Origin: Thermoanaerobaculia bacterium
Lineage (GTDB): Bacteria > Acidobacteriota > Thermoanaerobaculia > Gp7-AA8
Length of the DNA stretch: 64,000 nucleotides
Direction of reading: 5' to 3'
Assembly (NCBI GenBank): GCA_035996815.1
Contig: DASYJF010000134.1
Coordinates: forward strand, 34,096 to 98,095
Shown here: one piece after another, positions 1,007 to 59,616 of the stretch
Numbering within the stretch: the stretch's first letter is position 1
Layout of the letters: every line of letters begins with the position of its first letter
Translations under genes and position numbers: made by a program
Notes under the pieces: generated by a model
Told to the model about the DNA's origin: nothing
Databases searched by the model: none
What the model saw: only the letters and a program-made list of their open reading frames with translations

Positions 1007-1243
1007 GAGCGCGGGGCTGCATTGTTCCGGCGCGCCTCCGCGCGCTCCGACCGACGCGACGAAGCGTGGCGTCTGCTCGGCGCAGCCGCACGATGAAACG
1101 CACGACCGTAGCGCCGCCGGCTCGGCGGCTGGACCGCCAGCGGCTCGCTGGCGCGGTGCGTACGCGCGCATGTGGCGTCGTCCGCACCGACGGCGCTTCG
1201 CGCGCGGGACAATGCAGCCCCGCGCTCTGCGCGGGGTGCGCGT
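1007..1243. repeat. inverted pair of about 40-bp REP-like units (core GAGCGCGGGGCTGCATTGTYCC) flanking about 155 bp, with a GTAG-type REP (1107-1142) in the spacer
   Basis: 1007-1047 is the reverse complement of 1201-1243. The same family occurs at 8863-9028. Confidence 0.8.
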
Positions 1244-1317
1244 CGGGAAGCAGGATTGCGCGGTCGCGGAGGCGGCCGCTACAAAACGTCGCGCGCGCGC
1301 ACGGCGCGTCACGACCG

Positions 1318-2175
1318 CTACTGCGCGCGGGCGTCGCCGGCTTCGTATTTCCACGGCGTCATTGCATGCGCGCCTTCGGCGAATCTGGTGTCGACGAAGT
1401 CTTCGAACGGGATGGCGTGATCGAGGACTCCTGTCTGCACCATCAGGTTGACGATCGTTTCAAAGTCGGCGCGGCGCGGGGATAGCGGCTCGTATTTGAC
1501 GCGGTCGATTGGATTCGTGAGCGCCCAGCGGAGGAGCTTGGGATCCTGGTGGTAGTAGAAGCGGCCGACGAAATCGGCGGCGTGGAGGCGGTGGCGTTTG
1601 GCGCGTTCCTTTTCGTCGAGCCAGAGTCCCGATCGCGCGACGCCGTCGACCAGCGTCTGAATGGCTTCGGGATGTTTGTCGATGGCGTCCTGGCGGACGA
1701 CGAGGACGCAGGAGATGTAGTCCGGCCAGTACTGACGTGCGTGAAAGAGCACGCGGCCGAAACCGGCCATCTCGGCCTGCGAGGGATACGGCTCGCCCAT
1801 CGAGAAGGCGTCGATCGCGTTGGCGGCCAGGGCGCCGGCGACGTCGGGCGGGGCCATCTCTACCATCCGCACATCTTTTTTCGCATCCATCCCGTTCGCC
1901 TGCAGGGCGCGGAAGACGATGAGGCGTTCGTCGGAAAAGCGGCTGGGGATGGCGATGATGCGGCCGCGCAGATCGGATACACGATGCACAGGGCCGTCAC
2001 TGCGGACGACCACGGCCGAACCGTAGCGGTGGCCGAGGTAAACAATCTTCACCGGAACGCCCTGAGCCCGCAGGGCGATTGCCATCGGCGCGACCATGAA
2101 CGCCGCCTGCATCTTGTTGGACATCAGCGCTTCTTTGATTTCAGGGAAGCCCTGAAACATGCGCGGGATAAACAA
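1318..2175 (-). CDS. ABC transporter substrate-binding protein, NMT1/SsuA/TauA (NitT/TauT) family; 5' end disrupted or non-canonical
   Basis: Mature-domain similarity to aliphatic sulfonate/nitrate/taurine binding proteins. It is the last gene of the permease-ATPase-permease operon. The signal-peptide-like segment continues upstream to 2379 but is separated by an in-frame TGA (2230-2232) and has no ATG/GTG/TTG start. Confidence 0.7.
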   Translation of the reverse strand: MFIPRMFQGFPEIKEALMSNKMQAAFMVAPMAIALRAQGVPVKIVYLGHRYGSAVVVRSDGPVHRVSDLRGRIIAIPSRFSDERLIVFRALQANGMDAKKDVRMVEMAPPDVAGALAANAIDAFSMGEPYPSQAEMAGFGRVLFHARQYWPDYISCVLVVRQDAIDKHPEAIQTLVDGVARSGLWLDEKERAKRHRLHAADFVGRFYYHQDPKLLRWALTNPIDRVKYEPLSPRRADFETIVNLMVQTGVLDHAIPFEDFVDTRFAEGAHAMTPWKYEAGDARAQ

Positions 2176-2394
2176 ATGTCCGGACTGCGAGTAGGCGGAG
2201 ATGTAGTCGGTGACCGGGCAAGCGAGATGTCACGTTACGGGGATATACGCGACATTGAGCTTGCGGTCTGCTTCGGGCAACCGGTCGTTCATCAGCACCT
2301 GCCAGTTCACGTTGAGTGCAAAATGCGCGGCGGTGATGGCGAGTATCCAGGTGGTGATGGCGAGGGTTAGTTTTTTGATTTTGGGCCTCCTTTC

Positions 2395-2467
2395 TAGTGG
2401 TCAGGGCTACTAGTGGTCCGTGGTCAGTCTTTGTTTCTTGCCCACTGACCACTGGCCACTGACCACT
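2395..2467. repeat. GGTCAGT-heptamer inverted-repeat hairpin between the permease and SBP cistrons
   Basis: Arms agtggtcagggctactagtggtccgtggtcagt and ccactgaccactggccactgaccact flank a 13-nt loop. The left arm supplies the last about 18 codons of the permease ORF. Confidence 0.8.
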
Positions 2468-3252
2468 TGTTCAACAGCGCGAATCGCTGTATCCAGCAAC
2501 AATCCAATCAATCCAATCAACAGCATTCCGGCGACTACGAGGTCGTAGTGTTTGCCGGCGTTGCGGGCGTCGATGATGAGGTATCCGAGTCCGGAGTCGA
2601 CGGCGATCATTTCGGCGGCGACGAGGACGACCCAGGCGATGCCGAAGGCGAGGCGCAGGCCGACAATGATCCGCGGCAGTACGGCGGGGATCATGACGCG
2701 TCTCATCAATTGCGGCGTGGAGAGTCCGAAATTGCGGCCCGCCTGGAGGTACATCGGCGGAACGTTGCGGACGCCGTTCATGGCCGCGACGATGATCGGG
2801 AAGAGTGAGGCCAGAAAAATCAGGAAGATCGGCGCGGCATTGCTGACGCCGAACCAGATCACAGCTAGCGGCATCCAGGCCAGTGGCGAGATCGGTCGGA
2901 GCATCTGAATCAGCGGATTGATCGCTCTTGCCAGTGGCGCGCACCAGCCGAGGAGGAAGCCGAGTGGGATACCGATGACCATGGCGGCGGCGTAGCCTGC
3001 AAAGACGCGCGTGAGCGAGTCGGCGATGTAGTGCCAGAGTAGCGATTTTTCTGACAGAGTGGCGATGGCCTTGGCAACCGCTGTCGGCGTTGGAAAGATT
3101 TTTGTGCCTGACGCTCTTACGGCGATCGACCAGAGGACCAGGATGATCGCAGCCGTGGTGATCGGCAGCAAAAAGCGTTGAAACCACAGAGGCACAGAGG
3201 ACACAGAGATAGCTTTCTCTGTGCTCTCTGTGTCTCTGTGGTGAGTTCTCAT
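2410..3252 (-). CDS. ABC transporter permease (NitT/TauT family, SsuC-like)
   Basis: Multi-TM protein with the EAA-like motif region (MIAVDSGLGYLIIDA). Paralog of 3980-4735. Confidence 0.9.
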   Translation of the reverse strand: MRTHHRDTESTEKAISVSSVPLWFQRFLLPITTAAIILVLWSIAVRASGTKIFPTPTAVAKAIATLSEKSLLWHYIADSLTRVFAGYAAAMVIGIPLGFLLGWCAPLARAINPLIQMLRPISPLAWMPLAVIWFGVSNAAPIFLIFLASLFPIIVAAMNGVRNVPPMYLQAGRNFGLSTPQLMRRVMIPAVLPRIIVGLRLAFGIAWVVLVAAEMIAVDSGLGYLIIDARNAGKHYDLVVAGMLLIGLIGLLLDTAIRAVEQVVSGQWSVGKKQRLTTDH

Positions 3253-3983
3253 ACTTGGTGGGCGAGTCCAATCTCGCCAAAAATGAGATCGCGTAATTCG
3301 ATATACCGCCGCGATGAGAGATCGCGCGGATGAGGAATGTCGATATCCACCACGCGTCGAATTTTCCCCGGGCGCGCGCTCATGACTACAACGCGGTCAG
3401 CGAGCTGCACTGACTCCTCGATGTCGTGTGTGACGAAGAGGACGGTTTTGCGTTCGGCGCGCCAGATCCGCAACAGCTCGCTGCGCATCTGCAATCGCGT
3501 GATCGAATCGAGCGCGCCGAAGGGTTCGTCGAGGAAGAGGACGTCGGGATTCACGGCCAGCGCGCGCGCCACTTCCACGCGCTGCTTCATGCCGCCGGAG
3601 AGCTCGCGCGGATAGGACTTTTCGAATCCTTTGAGTCCGACGAGATCGATGTACTGCGCGACGCGAGTGCGGCGTTCATCTTCTGACATATCGAACAAAC
3701 CGAAGCCGATGTTGCCTTCGACGGTCAGCCAGGGAAAGACGCCGCGTTCCTGGAAGACGAAGATGCGGCGGCGGTCGGGGGCGGTGACCTGCTCGCCGTC
3801 GATCGTGACTGAGCCGCTGCCGGGCGCGAGGAATCCGCCGGCGATGTTGAGCAGCGTCGACTTGCCGCATCCGGACGGACCGACGATGCAGAGGAACTCC
3901 CCTTCTTCAGCGCCGAGGGTGATGTGCTGAAGGACTTCCATCGCGCCGAAGCGCATCGAGATGTCGCTGAACTGGACTTTCAC
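3249..3983 (-). CDS. ABC transporter ATP-binding protein (NitT/TauT family, SsuB-like)
   Basis: Walker A GPSGCGKST, ABC signature LSGGMKQR, Walker B LFLDEP. GTG start overlaps the TGA of the upstream permease. Confidence 0.9.
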   Translation of the reverse strand: MKVQFSDISMRFGAMEVLQHITLGAEEGEFLCIVGPSGCGKSTLLNIAGGFLAPGSGSVTIDGEQVTAPDRRRIFVFQERGVFPWLTVEGNIGFGLFDMSEDERRTRVAQYIDLVGLKGFEKSYPRELSGGMKQRVEVARALAVNPDVLFLDEPFGALDSITRLQMRSELLRIWRAERKTVLFVTHDIEESVQLADRVVVMSARPGKIRRVVDIDIPHPRDLSSRRYIELRDLIFGEIGLAHQV

Positions 3984-4735
3984 TCGGAGGCGTAACCCCA
4001 GCGGACGGAATCGAGCCGCTCCAGGCGGCGCATCAGGAGATCGAGCACGATGCCGACCAGACCGATGAGCACCATGCCCGCGATGACGAGGTCGTAGCGG
4101 TTGCCGGCGTTGCGGGCGTCGACGATCAGGAAGCCAAGACCGGAGTTGACGGCGATCATCTCCGCGGCCACGACCACGAGCCACGCCACGCCGAGCGTGA
4201 TGCGCATGGCCACGATGAGCTGCGGAAGGATGGCCGGGACCAGCACGTCGCGCATCCGCGCGCGCAACGGGATTCCGAAGTTGCGCGCGGCGGAGAGGTG
4301 GACCGGATCGATGTTGTGCATGGCGTTCATGGTCGCCACCGTCATTGGGAGCAGGCTGGCCAGGAAGATCAGGAAGATTGCGGAGATGTCGCCGACGCCG
4401 AACCAAAGGATGGCGATCGGAATCCACGCCAGCGGCGAGATCGGCCGGAGGATCTGCAGGATCGGATTCATGGCCATCTCGCCGAGCCTCATCATCCCCA
4501 GCATTAGTCCGAGCGGGACGGCGATGACGAGCGCGGCGAGGTATCCCCACGTGACGCGGAAGAGCGAGGCCACGACGTATTTGACGAGCAGTCCGCGCAC
4601 CGCCAGCTCGCCGATGCCTTGCGCGACAGCGATCGGTCCGGGAATGAGCGATGACGGGCGGAGCATCACCGCGATCTGCCATGCGGCGAGGGCGGCGACG
4701 ATGCCGGTAAAGGGAAGCAGACGCGAGCGCGACAC
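3980..4735 (-). CDS. ABC transporter permease (NitT/TauT family), second paralog
   Basis: About 55% identical to the 2410-3252 product. GTG start. Confidence 0.9.
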   Translation of the reverse strand: MSRSRLLPFTGIVAALAAWQIAVMLRPSSLIPGPIAVAQGIGELAVRGLLVKYVVASLFRVTWGYLAALVIAVPLGLMLGMMRLGEMAMNPILQILRPISPLAWIPIAILWFGVGDISAIFLIFLASLLPMTVATMNAMHNIDPVHLSAARNFGIPLRARMRDVLVPAILPQLIVAMRITLGVAWLVVVAAEMIAVNSGLGFLIVDARNAGNRYDLVIAGMVLIGLVGIVLDLLMRRLERLDSVRWGYASE

Positions 4736-4755
4736 GGTGGCGGAAGATAGCAGAA

Positions 4756-4860
4756 GCAGTGGAATGGGGATTAGTGGTCAGTGGTCAGTGGTCAGTGGTC
4801 AGTGGTCAGTGGTCCAATGTTCTCTCCTGATCGACTAATCCACTACTCTACTAATCTACC
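4756..4860. repeat. composite heptamer element: 5 tandem GGTCAGT (4776-4815) followed by an ACTAATC-type arm (4816-4860) in the divergent permease/msrA intergenic region
   Basis: Perfect 5x tandem heptamer. The right arm shares TCCTGATCGACTAATC with the element upstream of cysS (12274-12322). Confidence 0.85.
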
Positions 4861-4866
4861 AACGAA

Positions 4867-5454
4867 ATGAAACGCATCCTTCTCCTCCTCGCCGCGCTTT
4901 TGCTTCTCTCCGCCGCACCCCCGCTGCGCCGCGCCGTCGCTACGTTTGCGGGCGGATGCTTCTGGTGCATGGAGCCGCCGTTCGAGCGGTTGAAGGGCGT
5001 CGTCTCGGTCACGTCCGGCTACACCGGTGGGCGTGTCGACAAACCTACCTACGAGCAGGTTTCGGACGGATATACGGGACATCGGGAGTCCGTAGAGATC
5101 GTCTATGACCCAGCGCAGATTTCGTATCAGCAGCTGCTCGACGTCTTCTGGCACAACGTAGATCCGCTCGATAACTCAGGTCAGTTTTGTGATCACGGCG
5201 GGCAGTATCGGACGGCGATCTTCGTCCACGACGCCGAGCAGAAGCGGCTGGCCGAGGCGTCGAAACAGGCGGTGGGCGTGCGGTTTCATCACGACGTCTT
5301 CACCGACATCCTTCCCGCAGCGCGCTTTTATCGTGCCGAGGAGTATCATCAGGACTATTACAAAAAGAATCCGCTGCGGTACAAGTTCTACCGCTTCAAC
5401 TGCGGACGCGATCAGCGGCTGAAAGAGTTGTGGGGCGCGGCGCCGGCGCATTGA
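4867..5454 (+). CDS. msrA: peptide-methionine (S)-S-oxide reductase MsrA, with signal peptide
   Basis: GCFWC active-site motif and an MsrA-typical C-terminal region. Hydrophobic N-terminal signal. Confidence 0.9.
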   Translation: MKRILLLLAALLLLSAAPPLRRAVATFAGGCFWCMEPPFERLKGVVSVTSGYTGGRVDKPTYEQVSDGYTGHRESVEIVYDPAQISYQQLLDVFWHNVDPLDNSGQFCDHGGQYRTAIFVHDAEQKRLAEASKQAVGVRFHHDVFTDILPAARFYRAEEYHQDYYKKNPLRYKFYRFNCGRDQRLKELWGAAPAH

Positions 5455-5556
5455 GGCAGTGGACTAGTCGATTAGCGGATTCGTAGATCAGAGCGAACTC
5501 GCTTCACTCGCCCACGAATCTACTGATCTACTAGTCCACTAGTCTACTAATCACGG
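5455..5556. repeat. GATTAGT-family heptad hairpin immediately 3' of the msrA stop
   Basis: Arm gcagtggactagtcgattagcggattcgtagatcag and its imperfect reverse complement ...ctgatctactagtccactagtctactaatc. Homologous to 56289-56336 and 59553-59616. Confidence 0.8.
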
Positions 5557-6801
5557 CTCGAGTCTCACTACCGAGGTCGCGATTGCGTGTGATGCCGTCC
5601 TGACCGCCGGCGCGTACTGCACGAAGGCCACCTTCCCGTCGGCGCGGCTGGCGTCGGGATTCACGATCCGCGACGGCGTCGACGTGATGATCGACTCCAG
5701 CTCCTGCGGCGTCAGGTTCGGACGTTCGCCCAGCAGGCGCGCGGCAATCCCGGAGATGATCGGCGCCGCGAACGATGTCCCCGAGCGCAGATTCGGCTTC
5801 GTGCCGCGGTAGTGATTGGTCGCGGTGATCGAAGCGCTGAAAATGCCCTGCGACGGCGCCAGGATTTCGAGGCCGCCGTGGCAGGCTCCGGGCCACCAAC
5901 TGTTGTCCGAGGTCATGCCGCCGACGGTGATGAGGCCGTCGAGATCCTTGCCGAGCGTGGCGGGGAAACGATCGACGACTCCGGCGCGGCCACAGCCGTT
6001 GTCGACGTTGTTTCCGGCCACGACGAAGAGGAAGCGCTTGCCGTTCGCGTCCGGGTGGCCGAGGGCGTCGACGCCTCCGATCATGTCGCGGATCTTCCGC
6101 TCGACCGCGGCGAACGTCACCGGCGCATCGTCGCGATTCGCGTACAGATGCTCCAGCACCCAGCCGCTGATGTTCACGACGGCCGTATGAAATTGCGGCG
6201 TCGACGGATCCCAAGCGTGGCGAATGATGTCGTTGAGACCGTCGAGGTACGTGCGCGTCGTAGCCAGCGCGGACTCGTTCATCACGCGCACGCTGACGAT
6301 GAGCGCTTCCGGCGCGACGCCGACGTTCTGTCCGGCCACGAGCGAGGCCACGCTCGTTCCGTGCGACGCGCCGGTCAACTCAGTCATCGTCGCGAAGCAC
6401 GGCATCAGCGCTTTGTTCGGACTGGCGCAGGTTGATGCGCCGACGGTCACGCCCTGCGTGGCGTCGAATCCGGCGATGACGCGGCTGCCGGCCGGCGTCG
6501 CGAACTCGGAATGCGCGGCCATGACGCCGGTATCCATGATGTAGACCACGGCGCCTCGACCGGCGTCGTGGCGGCGATACTCGCCATCGAGAATTCCGTC
6601 GCGCTGGTCGATCCGGTCGAGGTGCCAGAGAAGATTCGCGGCGGCCGGATCGCCGCATCCATCGAGCTTCGCGGCGTTGTGCGTTGCGTCAATCACGACC
6701 TCGGATTCGCGGCAGCGGGTCGAGGCGAGGTCCTTCGCGGAAGCCGGATAGACGGCCAGCACAAATAGGACAGCAGCGAAAACGCTTCGCAGCGGGGTCA
6801 C
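5551..6801 (-). CDS. S8 family subtilisin-like serine peptidase (secreted)
   Basis: Asp/His/Ser triad motifs VYIMDTGV, HGTSVASLVAG and GTSFAAPIISG. Start chosen at the GTG preceding the signal peptide; the ORF extends upstream through a repeat. Confidence 0.8.
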   Translation of the reverse strand: MTPLRSVFAAVLFVLAVYPASAKDLASTRCRESEVVIDATHNAAKLDGCGDPAAANLLWHLDRIDQRDGILDGEYRRHDAGRGAVVYIMDTGVMAAHSEFATPAGSRVIAGFDATQGVTVGASTCASPNKALMPCFATMTELTGASHGTSVASLVAGQNVGVAPEALIVSVRVMNESALATTRTYLDGLNDIIRHAWDPSTPQFHTAVVNISGWVLEHLYANRDDAPVTFAAVERKIRDMIGGVDALGHPDANGKRFLFVVAGNNVDNGCGRAGVVDRFPATLGKDLDGLITVGGMTSDNSWWPGACHGGLEILAPSQGIFSASITATNHYRGTKPNLRSGTSFAAPIISGIAARLLGERPNLTPQELESIITSTPSRIVNPDASRADGKVAFVQYAPAVRTASHAIATSVVRLEP

Positions 6802-6857: not shown

Positions 6858-8636
6858 ATGGCAAGAGAAAAGAATGGGAGTGGGGTGTGGGGTGTGGGGA
6901 GTGGGAGCATCCTTTTTGCTTTTTCTCCGACACCCCACTCCCTACTCCCCACTCCCCTCCTCGGCATCGCGTTCTTCGTCCTCGCACTGGCCTGCCGGTT
7001 CCTCAACGCGCCGTACGCGTTCGAGGGAGGCAGGCCGCGCATCGCGCCGGTGGACGAGCTGTATCACTGGAAGCGGATGGCGTACTCGGCGGCGCACTTT
7101 CCGCGCGTCCTGGAGCTCGATCGCGACCGCGGAGTCCGCGGCGCGTTTTGTCCATGGCCGCCGTTGTATGACGTGGCTGGCGGCGGCGCGGCGCGATTGC
7201 TCGGCGGCACAACCTCGGGCGAAGTCCTCGCGCGCATCATCTGGTTCCCGCCGATCCTCTTCGCGCTCTTCACCGGGATCGCTGTCTTCATCCTGGCCCG
7301 ACGGAGCGGGACGATGGTGGCGACGATTACCGGCATCGCGCTGGCGACGTCGCCATTTCTCGTGACTACGTCATGGATCGGCAGCATCGATCACCACTAC
7401 CTCGAGCCAGTGCTGACGTTCGCCATCGTCGGAGCGACGTGTCTCGGCATTCGCGCGGTGACACGGCGAGAAAAAATCCGCGCCGGCATTCTCCTCGGCA
7501 TCGCGATTACGGCGGCGATGTTCGTCCAGACCGCACTCCTGATCGCCGCCGCGCTCGCCTTCGCGGTGCTGTTCTTTGCGACGGACGGCATCGCAGCCGC
7601 TTGCGGCTTCAGCATCGCCGCGGTCGCGGTCGCGATCTACCGCCTCACCCGCGATTCCGGCTTTCCCGACAATCAATGGTTCCTCGGCTGGACCCACGCG
7701 ACGCTCTTCGCCGCCGCCGCAATTGCGTGCGCGATCGTCGCCACCCGACGTAGCGCCGGCGCGTGGCGGCGCGTCGTCGCGCTCCTCGCCGGTGGATTGA
7801 TCGCAATCGCGATCCCGACCGTCCGCGCATCGCTCTTCACCGGCTCGCACTTTCTCGGCGGCGACCGATGGCTGCGCACAATTCAGGAGTTCCAGCCGCT
7901 CTTGCGCGCGCGCGGCGACGATCTCTTATCCGACGCCGTCGGCCTCTCCGGCGGCGCGATCCTGGTCTGGTTCCTCGCAATCCGCGCAATCAAAACGCGC
8001 GACAGCGTCCGGCTCACGTTAGCCATCTTCGCGATCACCTACTTCGCGCTGACGATCACCAGCCGCCGCTTCTGGATCGTAGCCATCCCGCTGCTCGCCC
8101 TCGCCGGCGCGATGTACGTTCCGCTGATCGCGCGCAAGCGCCTGGCGATCGTCGCCGCACTTGTCATCGCGCTCCCTCCCCCGCTGCAACTTGCGGGATG
8201 GCTGATGACGCCGCAGTCGATCCCGCCGAATCAGCAGCAGTGGATTCGCGCAACGTCGTTCATCCGCACTCTCCCGCCCGGACGCGTCCTCGGACCGTGG
8301 TCGATGGGGCATTCCATCGACGTCGAAGGAAACCATCCCGTCATCCTCGACAACTTCGGCACGATGCCGGACGCCGCGACGTTCGAACGCGCGCAACAGG
8401 TGTTGCTGTCAACCGATGAGGCGACTCTCGCGCGCTACTGCGACGCGGCAAACGTCCGCTACCTGATCCTCGAACAGCCGCGCTTCGGAATCGCGTCCGC
8501 GAACGCCATCCTCGGCACACGACGAGCAGCGGAGTCGACATGGTGGTGGCGGGTCTGGCGGAGGGAGAATCGGGGAATGTTTCGCCTGATCTGGAGCGAG
8601 CCCGAGCTGAGAATTTACGAGCGACGCGGCCTTTGA
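6858..8636 (+). CDS. GT-C fold membrane glycosyltransferase-like protein (ArnT/PMT/STT3-like); start uncertain (6858 or downstream)
   Basis: About 12 predicted TM helices. A DE motif (APVDELYHW) sits in the first extracytoplasmic loop, followed by a C-terminal soluble domain. The ORF 5' end runs through the G-rich heptad repeat. Confidence 0.55.
   Translation: MAREKNGSGVWGVGSGSILFAFSPTPHSLLPTPLLGIAFFVLALACRFLNAPYAFEGGRPRIAPVDELYHWKRMAYSAAHFPRVLELDRDRGVRGAFCPWPPLYDVAGGGAARLLGGTTSGEVLARIIWFPPILFALFTGIAVFILARRSGTMVATITGIALATSPFLVTTSWIGSIDHHYLEPVLTFAIVGATCLGIRAVTRREKIRAGILLGIAITAAMFVQTALLIAAALAFAVLFFATDGIAAACGFSIAAVAVAIYRLTRDSGFPDNQWFLGWTHATLFAAAAIACAIVATRRSAGAWRRVVALLAGGLIAIAIPTVRASLFTGSHFLGGDRWLRTIQEFQPLLRARGDDLLSDAVGLSGGAILVWFLAIRAIKTRDSVRLTLAIFAITYFALTITSRRFWIVAIPLLALAGAMYVPLIARKRLAIVAALVIALPPPLQLAGWLMTPQSIPPNQQQWIRATSFIRTLPPGRVLGPWSMGHSIDVEGNHPVILDNFGTMPDAATFERAQQVLLSTDEATLARYCDAANVRYLILEQPRFGIASANAILGTRRAAESTWWWRVWRRENRGMFRLIWSEPELRIYERRGL
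6886..6958. repeat. G-rich heptad inverted-repeat element (GGGGAGT/GGGGTGT x4, 25-nt spacer, CCCCACT-type arm)
   Basis: Same family as 1-120. Lies between divergent protease and GT-C genes. Confidence 0.8.
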
Positions 8637-12273: not shown

Positions 12274-12322
12274 ATCCTGATCGACTAATCTACTCATCTA
12301 CTGATCCACTGATTTACTATCC
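12274..12322. repeat. ACTAATC-type heptad arm immediately upstream of the cysS ATG
   Basis: tcctgatcgactaatctactcatctactgatccactgatttactatcc; shares a 16-nt core with 4823-4860 upstream of msrA. Confidence 0.75.
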
Positions 12323-44631: not shown

Positions 44632-46185
44632 TCAGACGCTGGCGACAAGGTCGCGCACTCTGCCGCGGATGTCCTCCGGCTCGGCGATAAGGCGGTCGCG
44701 CTCGGCGGCATCGAGGAGGGAACGAAGGGCGCGATACGCGTCGCCGCGATCGGACGTTTCGCGAAGAATGGCGATGGGATCGAGGCCGCGGATCGAGAAC
44801 CATTCGTCGACAGCGATGCGCGTTTCTGCCGGCGTCTCGCGCACGAGCGCGCGTGTGTCGCGCCTGATGGCTCGCGCGCGTGAAATGCGAGGCCAGGCGA
44901 ATGCGAGCAGGATGAGGAGCGCCGCCGCGATGCCGATGAATGGAAGCGACTGGCGGGCGGCTTCGACGGGCGCGTTGCCCGGCGCGGGCGGTGGGTGCGA
45001 CTGCAGCAACGCCGCGTCGGCCGCCTGAACCATCAGCGCTCGCTGTTCGCAACGAAGCTCGCGCCGCACACCGGCCGGCGTCAAGATCTGCGCCGTCAGC
45101 GGCGGGATGACGAACATGCCGGTGCTGTTTGGGAAAATCAGAAACCGCCAGCGCCGCGTCATCACCGCTTCATCGCGCCTCTGCACGCTCACCGCCCCCT
45201 CGGCGATTTGCACGCTTCCGTCGATCGCTTGCGCAAACGATGGCGGCGGCGCGGCGCGAAGGTTCGCGGCGCCGGTCATGATCACGCCGACTGCCACCGG
45301 TCCGCCGTTCTTCTGCACCGGCGCCTCGCATTGCAGCGAGATGTCGCCGACCGCGGCGACGGGCGGCCCGGCCGGAATCGGACGCGCGTCGATTGGTAGC
45401 GGCGACGAGCGGCGCTGCACATCGACGACGCTTCCCTCGAACAGACGCAACGGATTGCCGAAGCCGAGCGGCTTCATGATCTGCGCCTCGATCGCGAGCG
45501 GATCGACGGTCAGCGTGCCGTTGCGCAGTGGAAAAAGCGCCACGCGGCGGATGATCAGCTTCTGCAGCGCCACACCGCCGAGGAAAACCTGCTGCGGCGT
45601 CTGACCGCGAGTGTCCAGTTCCTCGACCCAGAAGTCGGCCAGCTTCGGCATCCGCGCGATCCCGTGTTGCTGCACGTTCGCGGCGTTGTAAATCGTCCAC
45701 GTGACGATGACCTGTTCGCCGGTGAAGACGCTGCTCTTGTCCGCCTCGGCGACGACGAGAATCGGATCGCGTCCGGTGGCTATGAGCTCGTGAAGGATGC
45801 GGATCGGATCATTCGTCCCGGCGGCGAGATCGGGAAGCACCTGAATCGACAGCGGCGCGAGCGTCTCGACGTCTCCGTCCGCACCGTGCAACGTCAACGG
45901 TCCGACGAGGGCTGCGCCGGGATGGATCGGACGCGCGACGTAGCGCAGCACTTTGCGCCGCGACGACTGCCCGTTGATCCACGAGAACTCCGACGACACG
46001 GACGGCGATCCGTCGATGACGAGGTTCTGCAGTGGGAGCTGGAGATTTTCCGCCGAGGCGAAGGCGTCCGTGAGGGTGAGCGTGATGGTGAGGGCGTCGT
46101 CGGTGGAGAGGGTTCGTTTATCGACCTGAAGGTCGCTTGCCATCGCGGGTAGCGCGATTATCAAAAGGAGAAAGGCAATGTTGAA
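44632..46185 (-). CDS. BatD-like protein (Bat operon); 5' end uncertain, ORF continues into a heptamer repeat
   Basis: Last gene of the Bat cluster; BatD-like length with a C-terminal TM. Confidence 0.65.
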   Translation of the reverse strand, partial: FNIAFLLLIIALPAMASDLQVDKRTLSTDDALTITLTLTDAFASAENLQLPLQNLVIDGSPSVSSEFSWINGQSSRRKVLRYVARPIHPGAALVGPLTLHGADGDVETLAPLSIQVLPDLAAGTNDPIRILHELIATGRDPILVVAEADKSSVFTGEQVIVTWTIYNAANVQQHGIARMPKLADFWVEELDTRGQTPQQVFLGGVALQKLIIRRVALFPLRNGTLTVDPLAIEAQIMKPLGFGNPLRLFEGSVVDVQRRSSPLPIDARPIPAGPPVAAVGDISLQCEAPVQKNGGPVAVGVIMTGAANLRAAPPPSFAQAIDGSVQIAEGAVSVQRRDEAVMTRRWRFLIFPNSTGMFVIPPLTAQILTPAGVRRELRCEQRALMVQAADAALLQSHPPPAPGNAPVEAARQSLPFIGIAAALLILLAFAWPRISRARAIRRDTRALVRETPAETRIAVDEWFSIRGLDPIAILRETSDRGDAYRALRSLLDAAERDRLIAEPEDIRGRVRDLVASV

Positions 46186-46288
46186 TGTTGAATGTTGAAT
46201 GTTCAATGTTGAATGAGGAGGCCGAGGGCGTTTCCGCCGTCCCCTCCATCCAACATTCACCATTGAACATTCAACATTCAACATTCGC
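46177..46288. repeat. AATGTTG-heptamer inverted-repeat hairpin between batC and batD
   Basis: (aatgttg)x5 ... loop ... (caacatt)x5 with minor variants. Confidence 0.85.
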
Positions 46289-47194: not shown

Positions 47195-47515
47195 GACGGC
47201 GGGTTACACGGTGCGGGACGTCGCGTCCCACGGTGCGGACGTCGCGTCCCACGGTGTGTGACGTCGCGTCCCGCGGTGCGGGCGTCGCGTCCCACGGTGT
47301 GTGACGTCGCGTCCCGCGGTGCGGACGTCGCGTCCCGCGGTGTGTGACGTCGCGTCCCGCGGTGCGGGCGTCGCGTCCCGCGGTGTGTGACGGCGCGTCC
47401 CACGGTGCGGACGTCGCGTCCCGCGGTGCGGACGTCGCGTCCCGCGGTGTGTGACGTCGCATCCCGCGGTGCGGACGTCGCGTCCCACCGTGCGGAGGCC
47501 ACGTCACACGGTGCA
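47195..47515. repeat. tandem array of 13-14 direct repeats of 21/22 bp, each containing the palindrome GGGACGTCGCGTCCC; two alternating subtypes give a 43-bp higher-order period
   Basis: Units cggtgcgg(g)acgtcgcgtccc and cggtgtgtgacgtcgcgtccc alternate. No spacers, so not CRISPR. Confidence 0.9.
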
Positions 47516-56288: not shown

Positions 56289-56336
56289 AGCAGTGGATTA
56301 GTCGATTAGTAGATTAGTCGATTAGGGTGAACCGCT
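56289..56336. repeat. GATTAGT-family heptad arm directly after the stop of the ligase-like gene
   Basis: gcagtggattagtcgattagtagattagtcgattagg; near-identical to 5455-5490 after msrA. Confidence 0.8.
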
Positions 56337-59552: not shown

Positions 59553-59616
59553 CAGTGGATTAGTGGATTAGTAGATTCGTGCTTGGCCGCGCCCGAATCT
59601 ACTAATTCACTGCTTC
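59553..59616. repeat. GATTAGT-family heptad hairpin between convergent ubiB-like and lptE genes
   Basis: Arms cagtggattagtggattagtagattcg and cgaatctactaattcactg flank a 15-nt GC loop. Confidence 0.8.

What the first reader, a model, noticed from the sequence alone, without database searches (positions are those of the whole stretch)
2395..2467. Repeat element encodes the C-terminal tail of an ABC permease and forms an intercistronic hairpin
The left arm of the GGTCAGT hairpin is in frame with permease 2410-3252 and supplies its last about 18 codons (...VVSGQWSVGKKQRLTTDH). The paralogous permease 3980-4735 ends about 18 residues earlier, at the conserved position. The repeat has thus extended a coding sequence, and it lies exactly between two cistrons of one operon, where a stable hairpin could set differential mRNA decay or attenuate downstream expression.
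Basis: seen in the sequence. Interest (0 to 1): 0.55.

Follow-up and report, generated by a model that had tools for sequence, protein, structure and literature searches.

The report
Heptamer-repeat hairpin overwriting a permease tail
A 72-base hairpin made of tandem 7-base units sits between two genes of an ABC transporter operon in a soil acidobacterium and has overwritten the end of the upstream permease gene; it is one copy of a very abundant, fast-changing class of repeat hairpins that sit next to stop codons, not a device special to this operon.

Summary
Window 2396-2467 (- strand) folds into a stem-loop of -41 kcal/mol (z = -4.1). Its arms are tandem GTGGTCA / TGACCAC units. The permease ORF 2410-3252 reads through the 5' arm and loop and stops at a TAG in the 3' arm, so its last 18 codons are repeat-encoded. 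The nearest repeat-free orthologues end ...EQWISD*, so the repeat replaced 4 codons and added 14 net. The comparison with the paralogue is wrong in number: P1 is 7 residues longer than P2, not 18.

The host is a Thermoanaerobaculia (Acidobacteriota) soil bacterium. The same junction is a hot spot: relatives with 87-93% identical coding DNA carry other hairpins (GGGAGTC, GGGTGTC, GGCTGTC and others) or none. In about 848 kb of related DNA, 77% of heptamer arrays are paired as hairpins, with 80 different units. Away from this operon, 32 of 42 hairpins abut or overlap a stop codon. There is no U tract, no REP tag and no G·U over A·C bias.

My best reading is a REP-like palindrome built from simple-sequence repeats at the DNA level. 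The coding extension is a tolerated by-product, and any regulatory role is unproven. In passing: the downstream binding-protein gene has a conserved in-frame TGA (62 TGA against 16 Cys codons), so it is a likely selenoprotein.

The parts
2442..2467 (-). 5' arm of the hairpin on the mRNA: GTGGTCA GTGGCCA GTGGTCA GTGGG. It encodes P1 residues V263 to about G271 (VVSGQWSVG).
   Evidence: TRF period 7, 3.7 copies. Fold. Translation.
2424..2441 (-). Loop region of the hairpin (GCAAGAAACAAAGACTGA). It is translated as part of the P1 tail (…KKQRL).
   Evidence: Fold. Sequence.
2396..2423 (-). 3' arm: CCACGGACCACTAGTAGCCCTGACCACT. It holds the P1 stop codon TAG at 2412-2410 and ends 3 nt before the Shine-Dalgarno sequence.
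2410..3252 (-). Permease P1 (NitT/TauT-type, BPD_transp_1), 280 aa. Its ATG overlaps the ATPase stop (ATGA). Both termini are repeat-encoded.
3183..3242 (-). Second hairpin, built of 8-nt units (CACAGAGA x3 / TCTCTGTG x3, -47.6 kcal/mol). It is inserted in frame after codon 4 of P1 and encodes about 20 N-terminal residues. It is shared with L001 and L002 and absent in L005.
2386..2392 (-). Shine-Dalgarno sequence AAGGAGG of the binding-protein gene, directly 3' of the hairpin.
   Evidence: conserved in all orthologues.
1318..2379 (-). Substrate-binding protein gene (NMT1_2 / SsuA-like, N-terminal membrane anchor). Apparent ATC start at 2379-2377. In-frame TGA at 2232-2230, a candidate selenocysteine codon.
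3249..3983 (-). ABC ATPase. Its GTG start overlaps the P2 stop (GTGA).
3980..4735 (-). Permease P2, the paralogue of P1 (52% identity). It keeps the family-typical C terminus ...RRLERLDSVRWGYASE.
4773..4859 (-). Operon leader. It holds six perfect copies of the same heptamer (TGACCAC on the mRNA strand, 4773-4814) next to an 8-nt array (4830-4859). Together they form an imperfect hairpin (-34 kcal/mol).

Best explanation
The feature is one copy of an abundant class of palindromic simple-sequence-repeat elements found in Thermoanaerobaculia and other Acidobacteriota. Each element is two inverted arrays of a 7- or 8-nt unit, with a median length of 93 nt. They occupy the space right after stop codons.

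At the P1-SBP junction, which is a recurrent hot spot, the GTGGTCA version has overwritten the last four codons (WISD) and the stop of the permease gene. Translation therefore runs through the 5' arm and the loop and ends at a TAG in the 3' arm. This adds a net 14 residues to a poorly conserved tail, which I expect to be cytoplasmic.

Origin (inferred): slippage of 7-8-nt units, together with intrastrand template switching of the quasipalindrome-correction type. That process keeps the two arms complementary at the DNA level.

Consequence (inferred): the mRNA carries a stem-loop of -41 kcal/mol without a U tract. It does not terminate transcription. P1-translating ribosomes have to melt it, and they then terminate 17 nt before the SBP Shine-Dalgarno sequence, about the same stop-to-start spacing as in hairpin-free relatives. 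Translational coupling is thus kept. When the hairpin is not being translated, it could slow 3'-exonucleases or be cut by RNase III.

The coding extension is a tolerated by-product, not an adaptation. Any effect on expression is generic to the class, not tailored to this operon.
For: Shown:
- Hairpin and coding overlap.
- Repeat-free nearest orthologues end EQWISD*.
- The DNA alignment shows that the ancestral 3' end CAGTGGATTAGTGATTAATCCACT is itself a one-unit AGTGGATT mini-hairpin.
- 18 of 46 orthologous junctions carry a hairpin of -30 kcal/mol or stronger. 17 of these are built of repeat units, with many different units among them, and they always lie between the stop and the SD.
- Relatives with 87-93% identical coding DNA have GGGAGTC/GACCCCC hairpins, GGGTGTC/GACACCC hairpins, or none.
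- The homologous hairpin in L082 has GCGGTCA paired with TGACCGC, a change on both arms.
- Class statistics: 157 of 205 period-7 arrays and 32 of 61 period-8 arrays have an inverted partner, against 1 of 91 (period 6) and 7 of 46 (period 9). There are 80 different units among 189 paired arrays.
- Away from this operon, 32 of 42 hairpins start 0-10 nt after a stop codon or overlap one.
- Only 8 of 88 have a T-rich tail.
- There is no G·U against A·C asymmetry.
- The ATPase-P1 junction behaves the same way. The hairpin is kept in frame in three genomes.
- The GTGGTCA/GTGGCCA hairpin unit occurs on at least 120 metagenome contigs in unrelated contexts.

Background: heptameric SSRs are over-represented in many bacteria and sit close behind ORFs in Xanthomonas (PMC4692102, PMC4679880).
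Against: - No expression data exist, so an operon-specific regulatory role is not excluded.
- The locus sample is centred on one operon, so part of the statistics is not independent. The gene calls used for stop-codon distances are crude (GC3-based ORFs).
- The mismatch test used ungapped diagonals and may be noisy.
- Recurrence of a hairpin at the same junction in many lineages could also mean selection for a structure there.
- A +1 or -2 unit change in the 5' arm would give a run-on tail of about 90 aa across the SBP start. The overlap is therefore not entirely free of constraint.
- The template-switch origin is inferred from the pattern, not demonstrated.
Confidence: 0.6

Rival explanations
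1. The hairpin is a selected post-transcriptional regulator of this operon. As an intercistronic stem-loop, it sets the ratio of binding protein to membrane components. It could do this by blocking 3'-exonucleases, by RNase III processing that leaves a 5'-hairpin-protected SBP mRNA, or by making SBP translation strictly dependent on P1 translation.
For: - The stem is stable and sits directly next to the SD.
- Hairpins recur at exactly this junction in 18 of 46 orthologous operons, always between the stop and the SD.
- The arms co-vary between L082 and the window.
- REP hairpins in E. coli act this way in malEFG, and they affect translation when within 15 nt of a stop codon. This rests on my own knowledge (Newbury 1987; Liang, Rudd and Deutscher 2015) and was not retrieved here.
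Against: - 28 of 46 orthologous junctions, including the nearest relatives L001, L002 and L005, work with a 4-40 nt spacer and no hairpin.
- The same class of hairpin sits at convergent, divergent and unrelated junctions.
- There is no G·U over A·C bias on the sense strand.
- Arm co-variation is equally explained by DNA template switching.
Confidence: 0.25
2. The element is a contingency (phase-variable) locus. Gain or loss of 7-nt units shifts the P1 reading frame at its 3' end and switches between a short tail and a long run-on that reads across the SBP ribosome-binding site. This would turn SBP synthesis up or down in a heritable and reversible way.
For: - 7 is not a multiple of 3.
- The simulation gives three outcomes: the wild-type tail, a shorter tail (…ARNKD*), or a run-on of about 90 aa over the SBP start.
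- Orthologous tails differ in length, from 15 to 20 aa.
Against: - There are only 3.7 imperfect copies (89% matches), well below the tract lengths that give high slippage rates.
- Variation is seen between species, not shown within a population.
- Most elements of the class are fully intergenic.
Confidence: 0.07
3. It is a mobile element of the MITE or REP/RAYT type, inserted by a transposase that targets gene ends.
For: - The same hairpin sequence appears at two sites of one genome. CACAGAG occurs at two sites in L204. GTGGTCA occurs at 2396-2467 and 4773-4814 in the window.
- The GTGGTCA/GTGGCCA hairpin is on at least 120 metagenome contigs.
Against: - There is no conserved consensus: 80 units among 189 arrays.
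- The REP GTAG/CGTC tag is not enriched (25 of 88 against 41% at random positions).
- No target-site duplication or non-repeat terminal inverted repeat was seen in the junction alignments.
- No transposase was looked for.
Confidence: 0.08

Closest known systems
REP / BIME (repetitive extragenic palindromes) of Enterobacteria and Pseudomonas
   Same: Both are short imperfect palindromes, very abundant, extragenic, and concentrated just after stop codons and between cistrons of operons. Both form mRNA stem-loops without acting as full terminators. PMC3733652 describes REPs as 20-40 bp palindromes with proposed roles in termination and mRNA stabilisation.
   Different: The arms here are tandem 7-8-nt repeats, and the elements are longer (55-214 nt). 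There is no genome-wide consensus (80 units). The GTAG/CGTC tag is not enriched. The elements regularly run into coding sequence at both gene ends. The host phylum is Acidobacteriota.
Heptameric simple sequence repeats (LSSRs): cyanobacterial STRR heptamers, Nostoc GGGGA(C/T)T, Xanthomonas GGGAATC, Beggiatoaceae TAACTGA
   Same: Both have tandem 7-nt units, an intergenic location and a preference for the region just behind the upstream ORF. Length and sequence vary between close species (PMC4692102, PMC4679880).
   Different: Those repeats are mostly direct arrays of one or a few units per genome. Some form G-quadruplexes or lie just upstream of start codons. Here 77% of heptamer arrays are inverted pairs that form hairpins, and the units are extremely diverse.
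Intrinsic (Rho-independent) terminators
   Same: Both are G+C-rich stem-loops right after a stop codon.
   Different: There is no U tract at this element, and only 8 of 88 in the class have one. The element lies inside a translationally coupled operon, and the stem is far longer than a typical terminator.
Quasipalindrome correction by intrastrand template switching (described in E. coli; from my own knowledge)
   Same: It would explain why the two arms stay complementary while the unit sequence changes, and why mismatches show no strand bias.
   Different: It is a mutational mechanism, not an element family. Its action here is inferred only.

Membership tests
REP/BIME | Imperfect palindrome in extragenic DNA, close to the 3' ends of genes | tested here: met
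   The hairpin is -41 kcal/mol with z = -4.1. Away from this operon, 32 of 42 class members abut or overlap a stop codon.
REP/BIME | One conserved consensus sequence repeated many times in the genome | tested here: not met
   There are 80 distinct canonical units among 189 paired arrays. At least five unrelated units occur in this window alone.
REP/BIME | GTAG or CGTC tetranucleotide at one end (PMC3733652) | tested here: not met
   Found within 8 nt of an end in 25 of 88 elements, against 41% at random positions.
REP/BIME | Association with a RAYT (IS200/IS605-like) transposase | not tested
   No whole genome was available, and the window ORFs were not scanned for Y1 transposases.
Heptameric SSR / LSSR | Head-to-tail iteration of a 7-nt unit, longer than chance | tested here: met
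   TRF gives 3.7 copies at 89% matches at 2442-2467 and 6.0 perfect copies at 4773-4814. The motif occurs 9 times against 0.64 expected.
Heptameric SSR / LSSR | Mainly intergenic, variable between close relatives | tested here: met
Cyanobacterial STRR | Cyanobacterial host and the canonical units (CCCCAGT, TTGGTCA, CAACAGT; recalled from memory) | tested here: not met
   The host is Thermoanaerobaculia / Acidobacteriota. The unit GTGGTCA differs, and many other units occur.
Intrinsic terminator | Stem-loop followed by a U tract | tested here: not met
   The terminator scan does not report it, and the sequence after the stem is AGAAAGGAGG. The class figure is 8 of 88.
MITE | Terminal inverted repeats flanking a unique core, with a target-site duplication | tested here: inconclusive
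   The junction alignments with empty sites show no duplication, but the boundaries are blurred by the repeats.
Any Rfam RNA family | Covariance-model match at or above the gathering score | tested here: not met
   There are 0 matches in the whole window. Only chance miRNA-like hits appear at E = 0.5-7.
Bacterial selenoprotein (side finding, SBP gene) | In-frame TGA aligned with Cys codons in orthologues | tested here: met
   62 TGA, 15 TGC and 1 TGT at the same codon in 78 orthologous genes. Database homologues are truncated after the TGA.
Bacterial selenoprotein (side finding, SBP gene) | SECIS stem-loop just downstream of the UGA, and Sec machinery in the genome | tested here: inconclusive
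   There is no significant or Sec-specific fold and no Rfam SECIS hit. selA, selB, selD and tRNA-Sec could not be searched, and the window holds no tRNA.

The most novel reading that the evidence does not exclude
Acidobacteriota may carry an undescribed class of self-expanding palindromes made of 7-8-nt repeats. In this reading they are generated by a specific mechanism: template-switch-driven growth, or an unknown enzyme. They colonise the first nucleotides after stop codons, turn over faster than 10% coding divergence, and routinely rewrite the N- and C-termini of proteins. They would also act as general punctuation of polycistronic mRNAs (processing or coupling signals). The permease tail would then be a visible example of a phylum-wide way of creating new protein termini.
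Probability: 0.3. Interest if true: 0.7.

Novelty: new variant of a known kind. Interest (0 to 1): 0.45.

Why it matters
For annotation: in these soil genomes many gene starts and ends lie inside repeat hairpins, so called protein termini are often repeat-derived. Here both ends of P1 are. In related genomes the P1 start codon lies in a hairpin loop.

For biology: the elements offer a natural series of very different hairpins at one conserved intercistronic site. That series could be used to test how stem-loops next to stop codons affect coupling, processing and decay in a poorly studied phylum, and how inverted tandem arrays arise.

The side finding may matter more. This is an ABC-transporter binding protein with a conserved U-x-x-x-C motif that is truncated in public annotation. 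The only selenocysteine-containing binding protein I found described is SaoB of the SAO system (bioRxiv 10.1101/2022.07.06.499078), which belongs to a different family.

Tried and rejected
- Rfam found nothing: at gathering thresholds on the whole window, or in permissive mode on 2100-2500, where only chance miRNA-like hits appeared.
- The sigma-70 promoter and terminator scan of 1200-5000 found no promoter and did not call the hairpin a terminator.
- The REP tag test (GTAG/CGTC) showed no enrichment.
- The RNA-level selection test (G·U against A·C mismatches in sense orientation) showed no asymmetry.
- I first thought the 3' arm stops all three frames. This is wrong for this copy, because one frame runs on about 90 aa.
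- A single origin of the VVSGQ tail was rejected, because the tail is scattered on the orthologue tree (an NJ tree of limited robustness).
- The DNA for P0004 could not be retrieved.
It therefore gave context but no extra homologous junctions.
- The SECIS search for the side finding found no convincing structure.
- Literature searches for these hairpins in Acidobacteriota or Thermoanaerobaculia returned nothing.

Full report
**1. What is at 2395-2467.**

The operon is on the - strand. Read as mRNA, the sequence is ...GAACAA GTGGTCA GTGGCCA GTGGTCA GTGGG CAAGAAACAAAGA CTGACCAC GGACCAC TAG TAGCC CTGACCAC TAG AAAGGAGG....

- It folds into a stem-loop of -41.1 kcal/mol. Dinucleotide shuffles give -27.2 ± 3.4, so z = -4.1, and 0 of 200 shuffles fold as well.
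- TRF reports a period-7 array of 3.7 copies at 2442-2467.
- The inverted-repeat finder gives arms 2412-2428 / 2444-2460.
- The motif GTGGTCAGTGG occurs 9 times in the window against 0.64 expected.
- The ORF 2410-3252 is a BPD_transp_1 permease. It ends ...AVEQVVSGQWSVGKKQRLTTDH*. The last 18 codons start exactly where the first heptamer starts, and the TAG stop (2412-2410) lies in the 3' arm.

**2. The surroundings.**

The gene order on the - strand is as follows.

- A leader with six perfect copies of the same heptamer (4773-4814), followed by an 8-nt array.
- Permease P2 (4735-3980).
- The ATPase (3983-3249). Its GTG start overlaps the P2 stop.
- Permease P1 (3252-2410). Its ATG overlaps the ATPase stop as ATGA.
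- The hairpin.
- AAGGAGG, and then an NMT1_2 / SsuA-like binding protein (2379-1318).

NCBIfam places all four proteins in the nitrate/sulfonate/taurine group. The best hits are sub-threshold matches to the SAO transporter models. No sigma-70-like promoter and no terminator is predicted inside the operon, and the hairpin is followed by AGAAAGGAGG, not by a U tract. The same synteny, flanked by msrA and an S8 peptidase, is seen on long metagenome contigs. The element is therefore truly intercistronic.

**3. Did the repeat extend the gene?**

A scan of one genome per species returned 80 loci, all from Acidobacteriota and almost all from Thermoanaerobaculia MAGs.

- The closest orthologues match P1 only up to residue 265.
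- L001, L002 and L005 have no large hairpin. They end ...IRKIEQWISD*, with 26-40 nt before the binding-protein start.
- In the DNA alignment the window differs from them exactly from the first heptamer onward. The downstream GAAAGGAGGCCCAAAATC is shared.
- So the repeat replaced the last four codons plus the stop, and 18 new codons are read. The net gain is 14 residues.
- The ancestral end CAGTGGATTAGTGATTAATCCACT is itself a one-unit mini-hairpin of the octamer AGTGGATT, a unit that is common elsewhere in the window.
P1 and P2 align without gaps, and P1 is 7 residues longer at the C terminus and 22 longer at the N terminus.
- The wider family consensus is ...RR.ERlrfVRWaF.e, as in P2.

**4. 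The tail is not unique, and it always comes with the repeat.**

- Among metagenomic orthologues (76-87% identity), P0002, P0004, P0005 and P0011 end VVSGQ[WR]S...(T)DH or ...SDR. Most of the others end WIS[DE].
- DNA could be fetched for two of them. L081 lies on a 793-kb contig with the same synteny and has GTGGTCA/GTGGCCA arms at the same junction.
- L082 has GCGGTCA/GCGGCCA arms, with TGACCGC in the opposite arm. This is a change on both sides that keeps the pairing.
- On a neighbour-joining tree of the conserved core, these tails are scattered among WIS[DE] sequences.

**5. The junction is a hot spot with very fast turnover.**

- Of 46 loci where the downstream binding-protein gene was located, 18 have a hairpin of -30 kcal/mol or stronger between the stop and the SD. 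The strongest reaches -147 kcal/mol.
- 17 of these 18 are built of 7-8-nt units, and the units differ: GGCTGTC, AAACCAG, CAGAGAT, TGAATGA, GGCTGAA, TAACGGT, GGGCCGA, GGTTGTC, GTTGCTG and others. The remaining 28 loci have 2-52 nt and no such hairpin.
- The nearest relatives are L203-L207 (binding protein 97-99% identical in protein, coding DNA 87-93% identical). They have WISD* or WVSD*, followed by GGGAGTC/GACCCCC or GGGTGTC/GACACCC hairpins.
- The ATPase-P1 junction behaves the same way. L005 has the plain ATGA overlap and MKTRVVKVVFPIITA.
- The window, L001 and L002 have a 60-nt octamer hairpin (3183-3242, -47.6 kcal/mol) inserted in frame after codon 4.
- L004, L006 and L007 have an AATGTTG hairpin there instead. 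Its right arm is translated (IQHSTFNIEHSTL) from an ATG in the loop.
- P1 in the window is thus repeat-encoded at both ends.

**6. The class.**

- The window holds about nine such elements: 2396-2467, 3183-3242, 4773-4859, 5458-5552, 6871-6961, 12277-12318, 46177-46286, 56292-56325 and 59554-59611.
- I surveyed 848 kb (the window plus 82 related loci). Period-7 arrays dominate (205), and 77% of them have an inverted partner within 160 nt.
- For period 8 the figure is 32 of 61. For periods 6 and 9, which are typical of coding repeats, it is 1 of 91 and 7 of 46.
- There are 80 different canonical units among 189 paired arrays.
- With crude GC3-based gene calls, and away from the ABC operon, 22 of 42 hairpins start 0-10 nt after a stop codon and 10 overlap one.
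- Median length is 93 nt. Only 8 of 88 have a T-rich tail, and the REP tags GTAG/CGTC are not enriched.
Most show the complementary TGACCAC arm, and many lie right after a stop codon.
- The same hairpin sequence can occur at two sites of one genome.

**7. RNA device or DNA palindrome?**

I oriented 63 hairpins by the gene whose stop they abut and counted mismatches in the arms. There were 95 G·U-type against 81 A·C-type mismatches (p = 0.33), and 19 elements leaned each way.

Selection on the sense-strand RNA fold should favour G·U. Symmetry is what a DNA-level process predicts. Three further points fit this: the presence or absence among close relatives, the diversity of units, and the occurrence at convergent and divergent junctions.

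I therefore favour a DNA-level origin, which is inferred: slippage of 7-8-nt units plus intrastrand template switching that keeps the arms complementary. The idea that heptamer slippage relates to the polymerase footprint is discussed in PMC4679880 and PMC4692102. Elements would survive where they do least harm, between a stop codon and the next ribosome-binding site.

The RNA consequences are real but generic, and they too are inferred.

- There is no termination, because there is no U tract.
- The stem must be melted by ribosomes finishing P1.
- Because the stop now lies in the 3' arm, termination occurs 17 nt before the SD and 30 nt before the start. That is about the same spacing as in hairpin-free relatives (26-29 nt), so coupling is preserved.
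- An untranslated hairpin could slow exonucleases or be cut by RNase III.

**8. Constraint on the overlap.**

I simulated unit gain and loss in the 5' arm.

- -1 or +2 units give a shorter tail (...ARNKD*).
- +3 units restore the frame.
- +1 or -2 units give a run-on of about 90 aa across the binding-protein start.

A phase-variation reading is therefore possible in principle. With only 3.7 imperfect copies it is unlikely.

**9. Comparison with known systems.**

In position and likely effect the closest systems are REP/BIME elements. In composition the closest are the heptameric SSRs of cyanobacteria, Xanthomonas and Beggiatoaceae (PMC3733652, PMC4692102, PMC4679880). This element is not a member of REP, because there is no consensus and no tag. 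It is not an intrinsic terminator. It matches no Rfam family.

I found no description of such hairpins in Acidobacteriota in the searchable library. That is absence of evidence within that library only. I rate it a new variant of a known kind.

**10. Side finding.**

The binding-protein gene has an in-frame TGA at 2232-2230 (IPVT*HLACPVTDY).

- In 78 orthologous genes the codon is TGA 62 times and TGC or TGT 16 times, in an otherwise invariant motif.
- The closest database homologues (90-99% identity) are 280- or 297-aa calls that begin after the TGA. Homologues covering the whole query (69-78% identity) are 349-375 aa long, as expected if they carry Cys at this codon; I did not read their sequences.
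- This is the classic Sec/Cys signature, so the protein is very likely a selenoprotein with a U-x-x-x-C motif.
- I could not find a convincing SECIS and could not check for the Sec machinery.
- It scores below the NCBIfam cut-offs for SsuA_fam and SaoX. It is not the CU-motif SaoB described by Haft (bioRxiv 10.1101/2022.07.06.499078).
- Its start codon appears to be ATC in the window, L001, L003 and L005. The same position is TTG in L002 and ATG in more distant relatives.

**11. Verdict.**

Interest is moderate, and most of it lies in the class of elements and in the neighbouring selenoprotein gene, not in this single tail.

Noticed in passing
window 2230-2232 (- strand), within the binding-protein gene 1318-2379: There is an in-frame TGA in the NMT1_2/SsuA-like binding protein (IPVT*HLACPVTDY). 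62 of 78 orthologues have TGA and 16 have TGC or TGT at this codon. Public gene calls are truncated to 280 or 297 aa. This is a likely selenocysteine (U-x-x-x-C) in an ABC-transporter binding protein that reaches no NCBIfam cut-off. No SECIS was found, and the Sec machinery was not checked.
   Followed up: partly
window 2377-2379 (- strand): The binding-protein gene seems to start at ATC, 6 nt after GGAGG. An in-frame stop lies just upstream, and there is no ATG, GTG or TTG before the signal anchor. The same position is ATC in L001, L003 and L005, TTG in L002 and ATG in more distant orthologues.
   Followed up: partly
window 3183-3242: An octamer-repeat hairpin (CACAGAGA x3 / TCTCTGTG x3, -47.6 kcal/mol) is inserted in frame after codon 4 of permease P1. 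It encodes about 20 extra N-terminal residues. It is kept in frame in L001 and L002 and is absent in L005.
   Followed up: yes
window 4773-4859: The operon leader carries six perfect copies of the same heptamer as the finding (TGACCAC on the mRNA strand). This is the same orientation as the 3' arm at 2396-2423 and is complementary to the 5' arm 2.3 kb downstream. An AATCCACT-type octamer array follows. Long-range pairing was not examined.
   Followed up: partly
window 5458-5552, 6871-6961, 12277-12318, 46177-46286, 56292-56325, 59554-59611, 95-117: These are further 7/8-nt repeat hairpins or arrays at gene ends: AGTGGATT-type octamers, GGGGAGT, and AATGTTG at -68 kcal/mol. That is about one per 7 kb. 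ORFs on both strands run into the 6871-6961 element.
   Followed up: partly
L004, L006, L007 (ATPase-P1 junction, just upstream of locus position 6001) and proteins P0003, P0006, P0008 and others: In these orthologues an AATGTTG hairpin separates the ATPase stop from P1. The called P1 start (ATG, preceded by GGGGGAG in L006 and L007) lies in the hairpin loop, and the right arm is translated as IQHSTFNIEHSTL.
   Followed up: partly
L204 1239-1298 and 2810-2882: The CACAGAG octamer hairpin of window 3183-3244 occurs at two different intergenic sites of one related genome (95% and 85% identity). This hints at spread or conversion between sites.
   Followed up: no
window 47207-47513: This is an intergenic tandem array of about 14 units of 21-22 nt. 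Each unit contains the small palindrome GGGACGTCGCGTCCC. TRF calls periods of 43 and 64 with scores of 444-458. It is unrelated to the heptamer hairpins.
   Followed up: no
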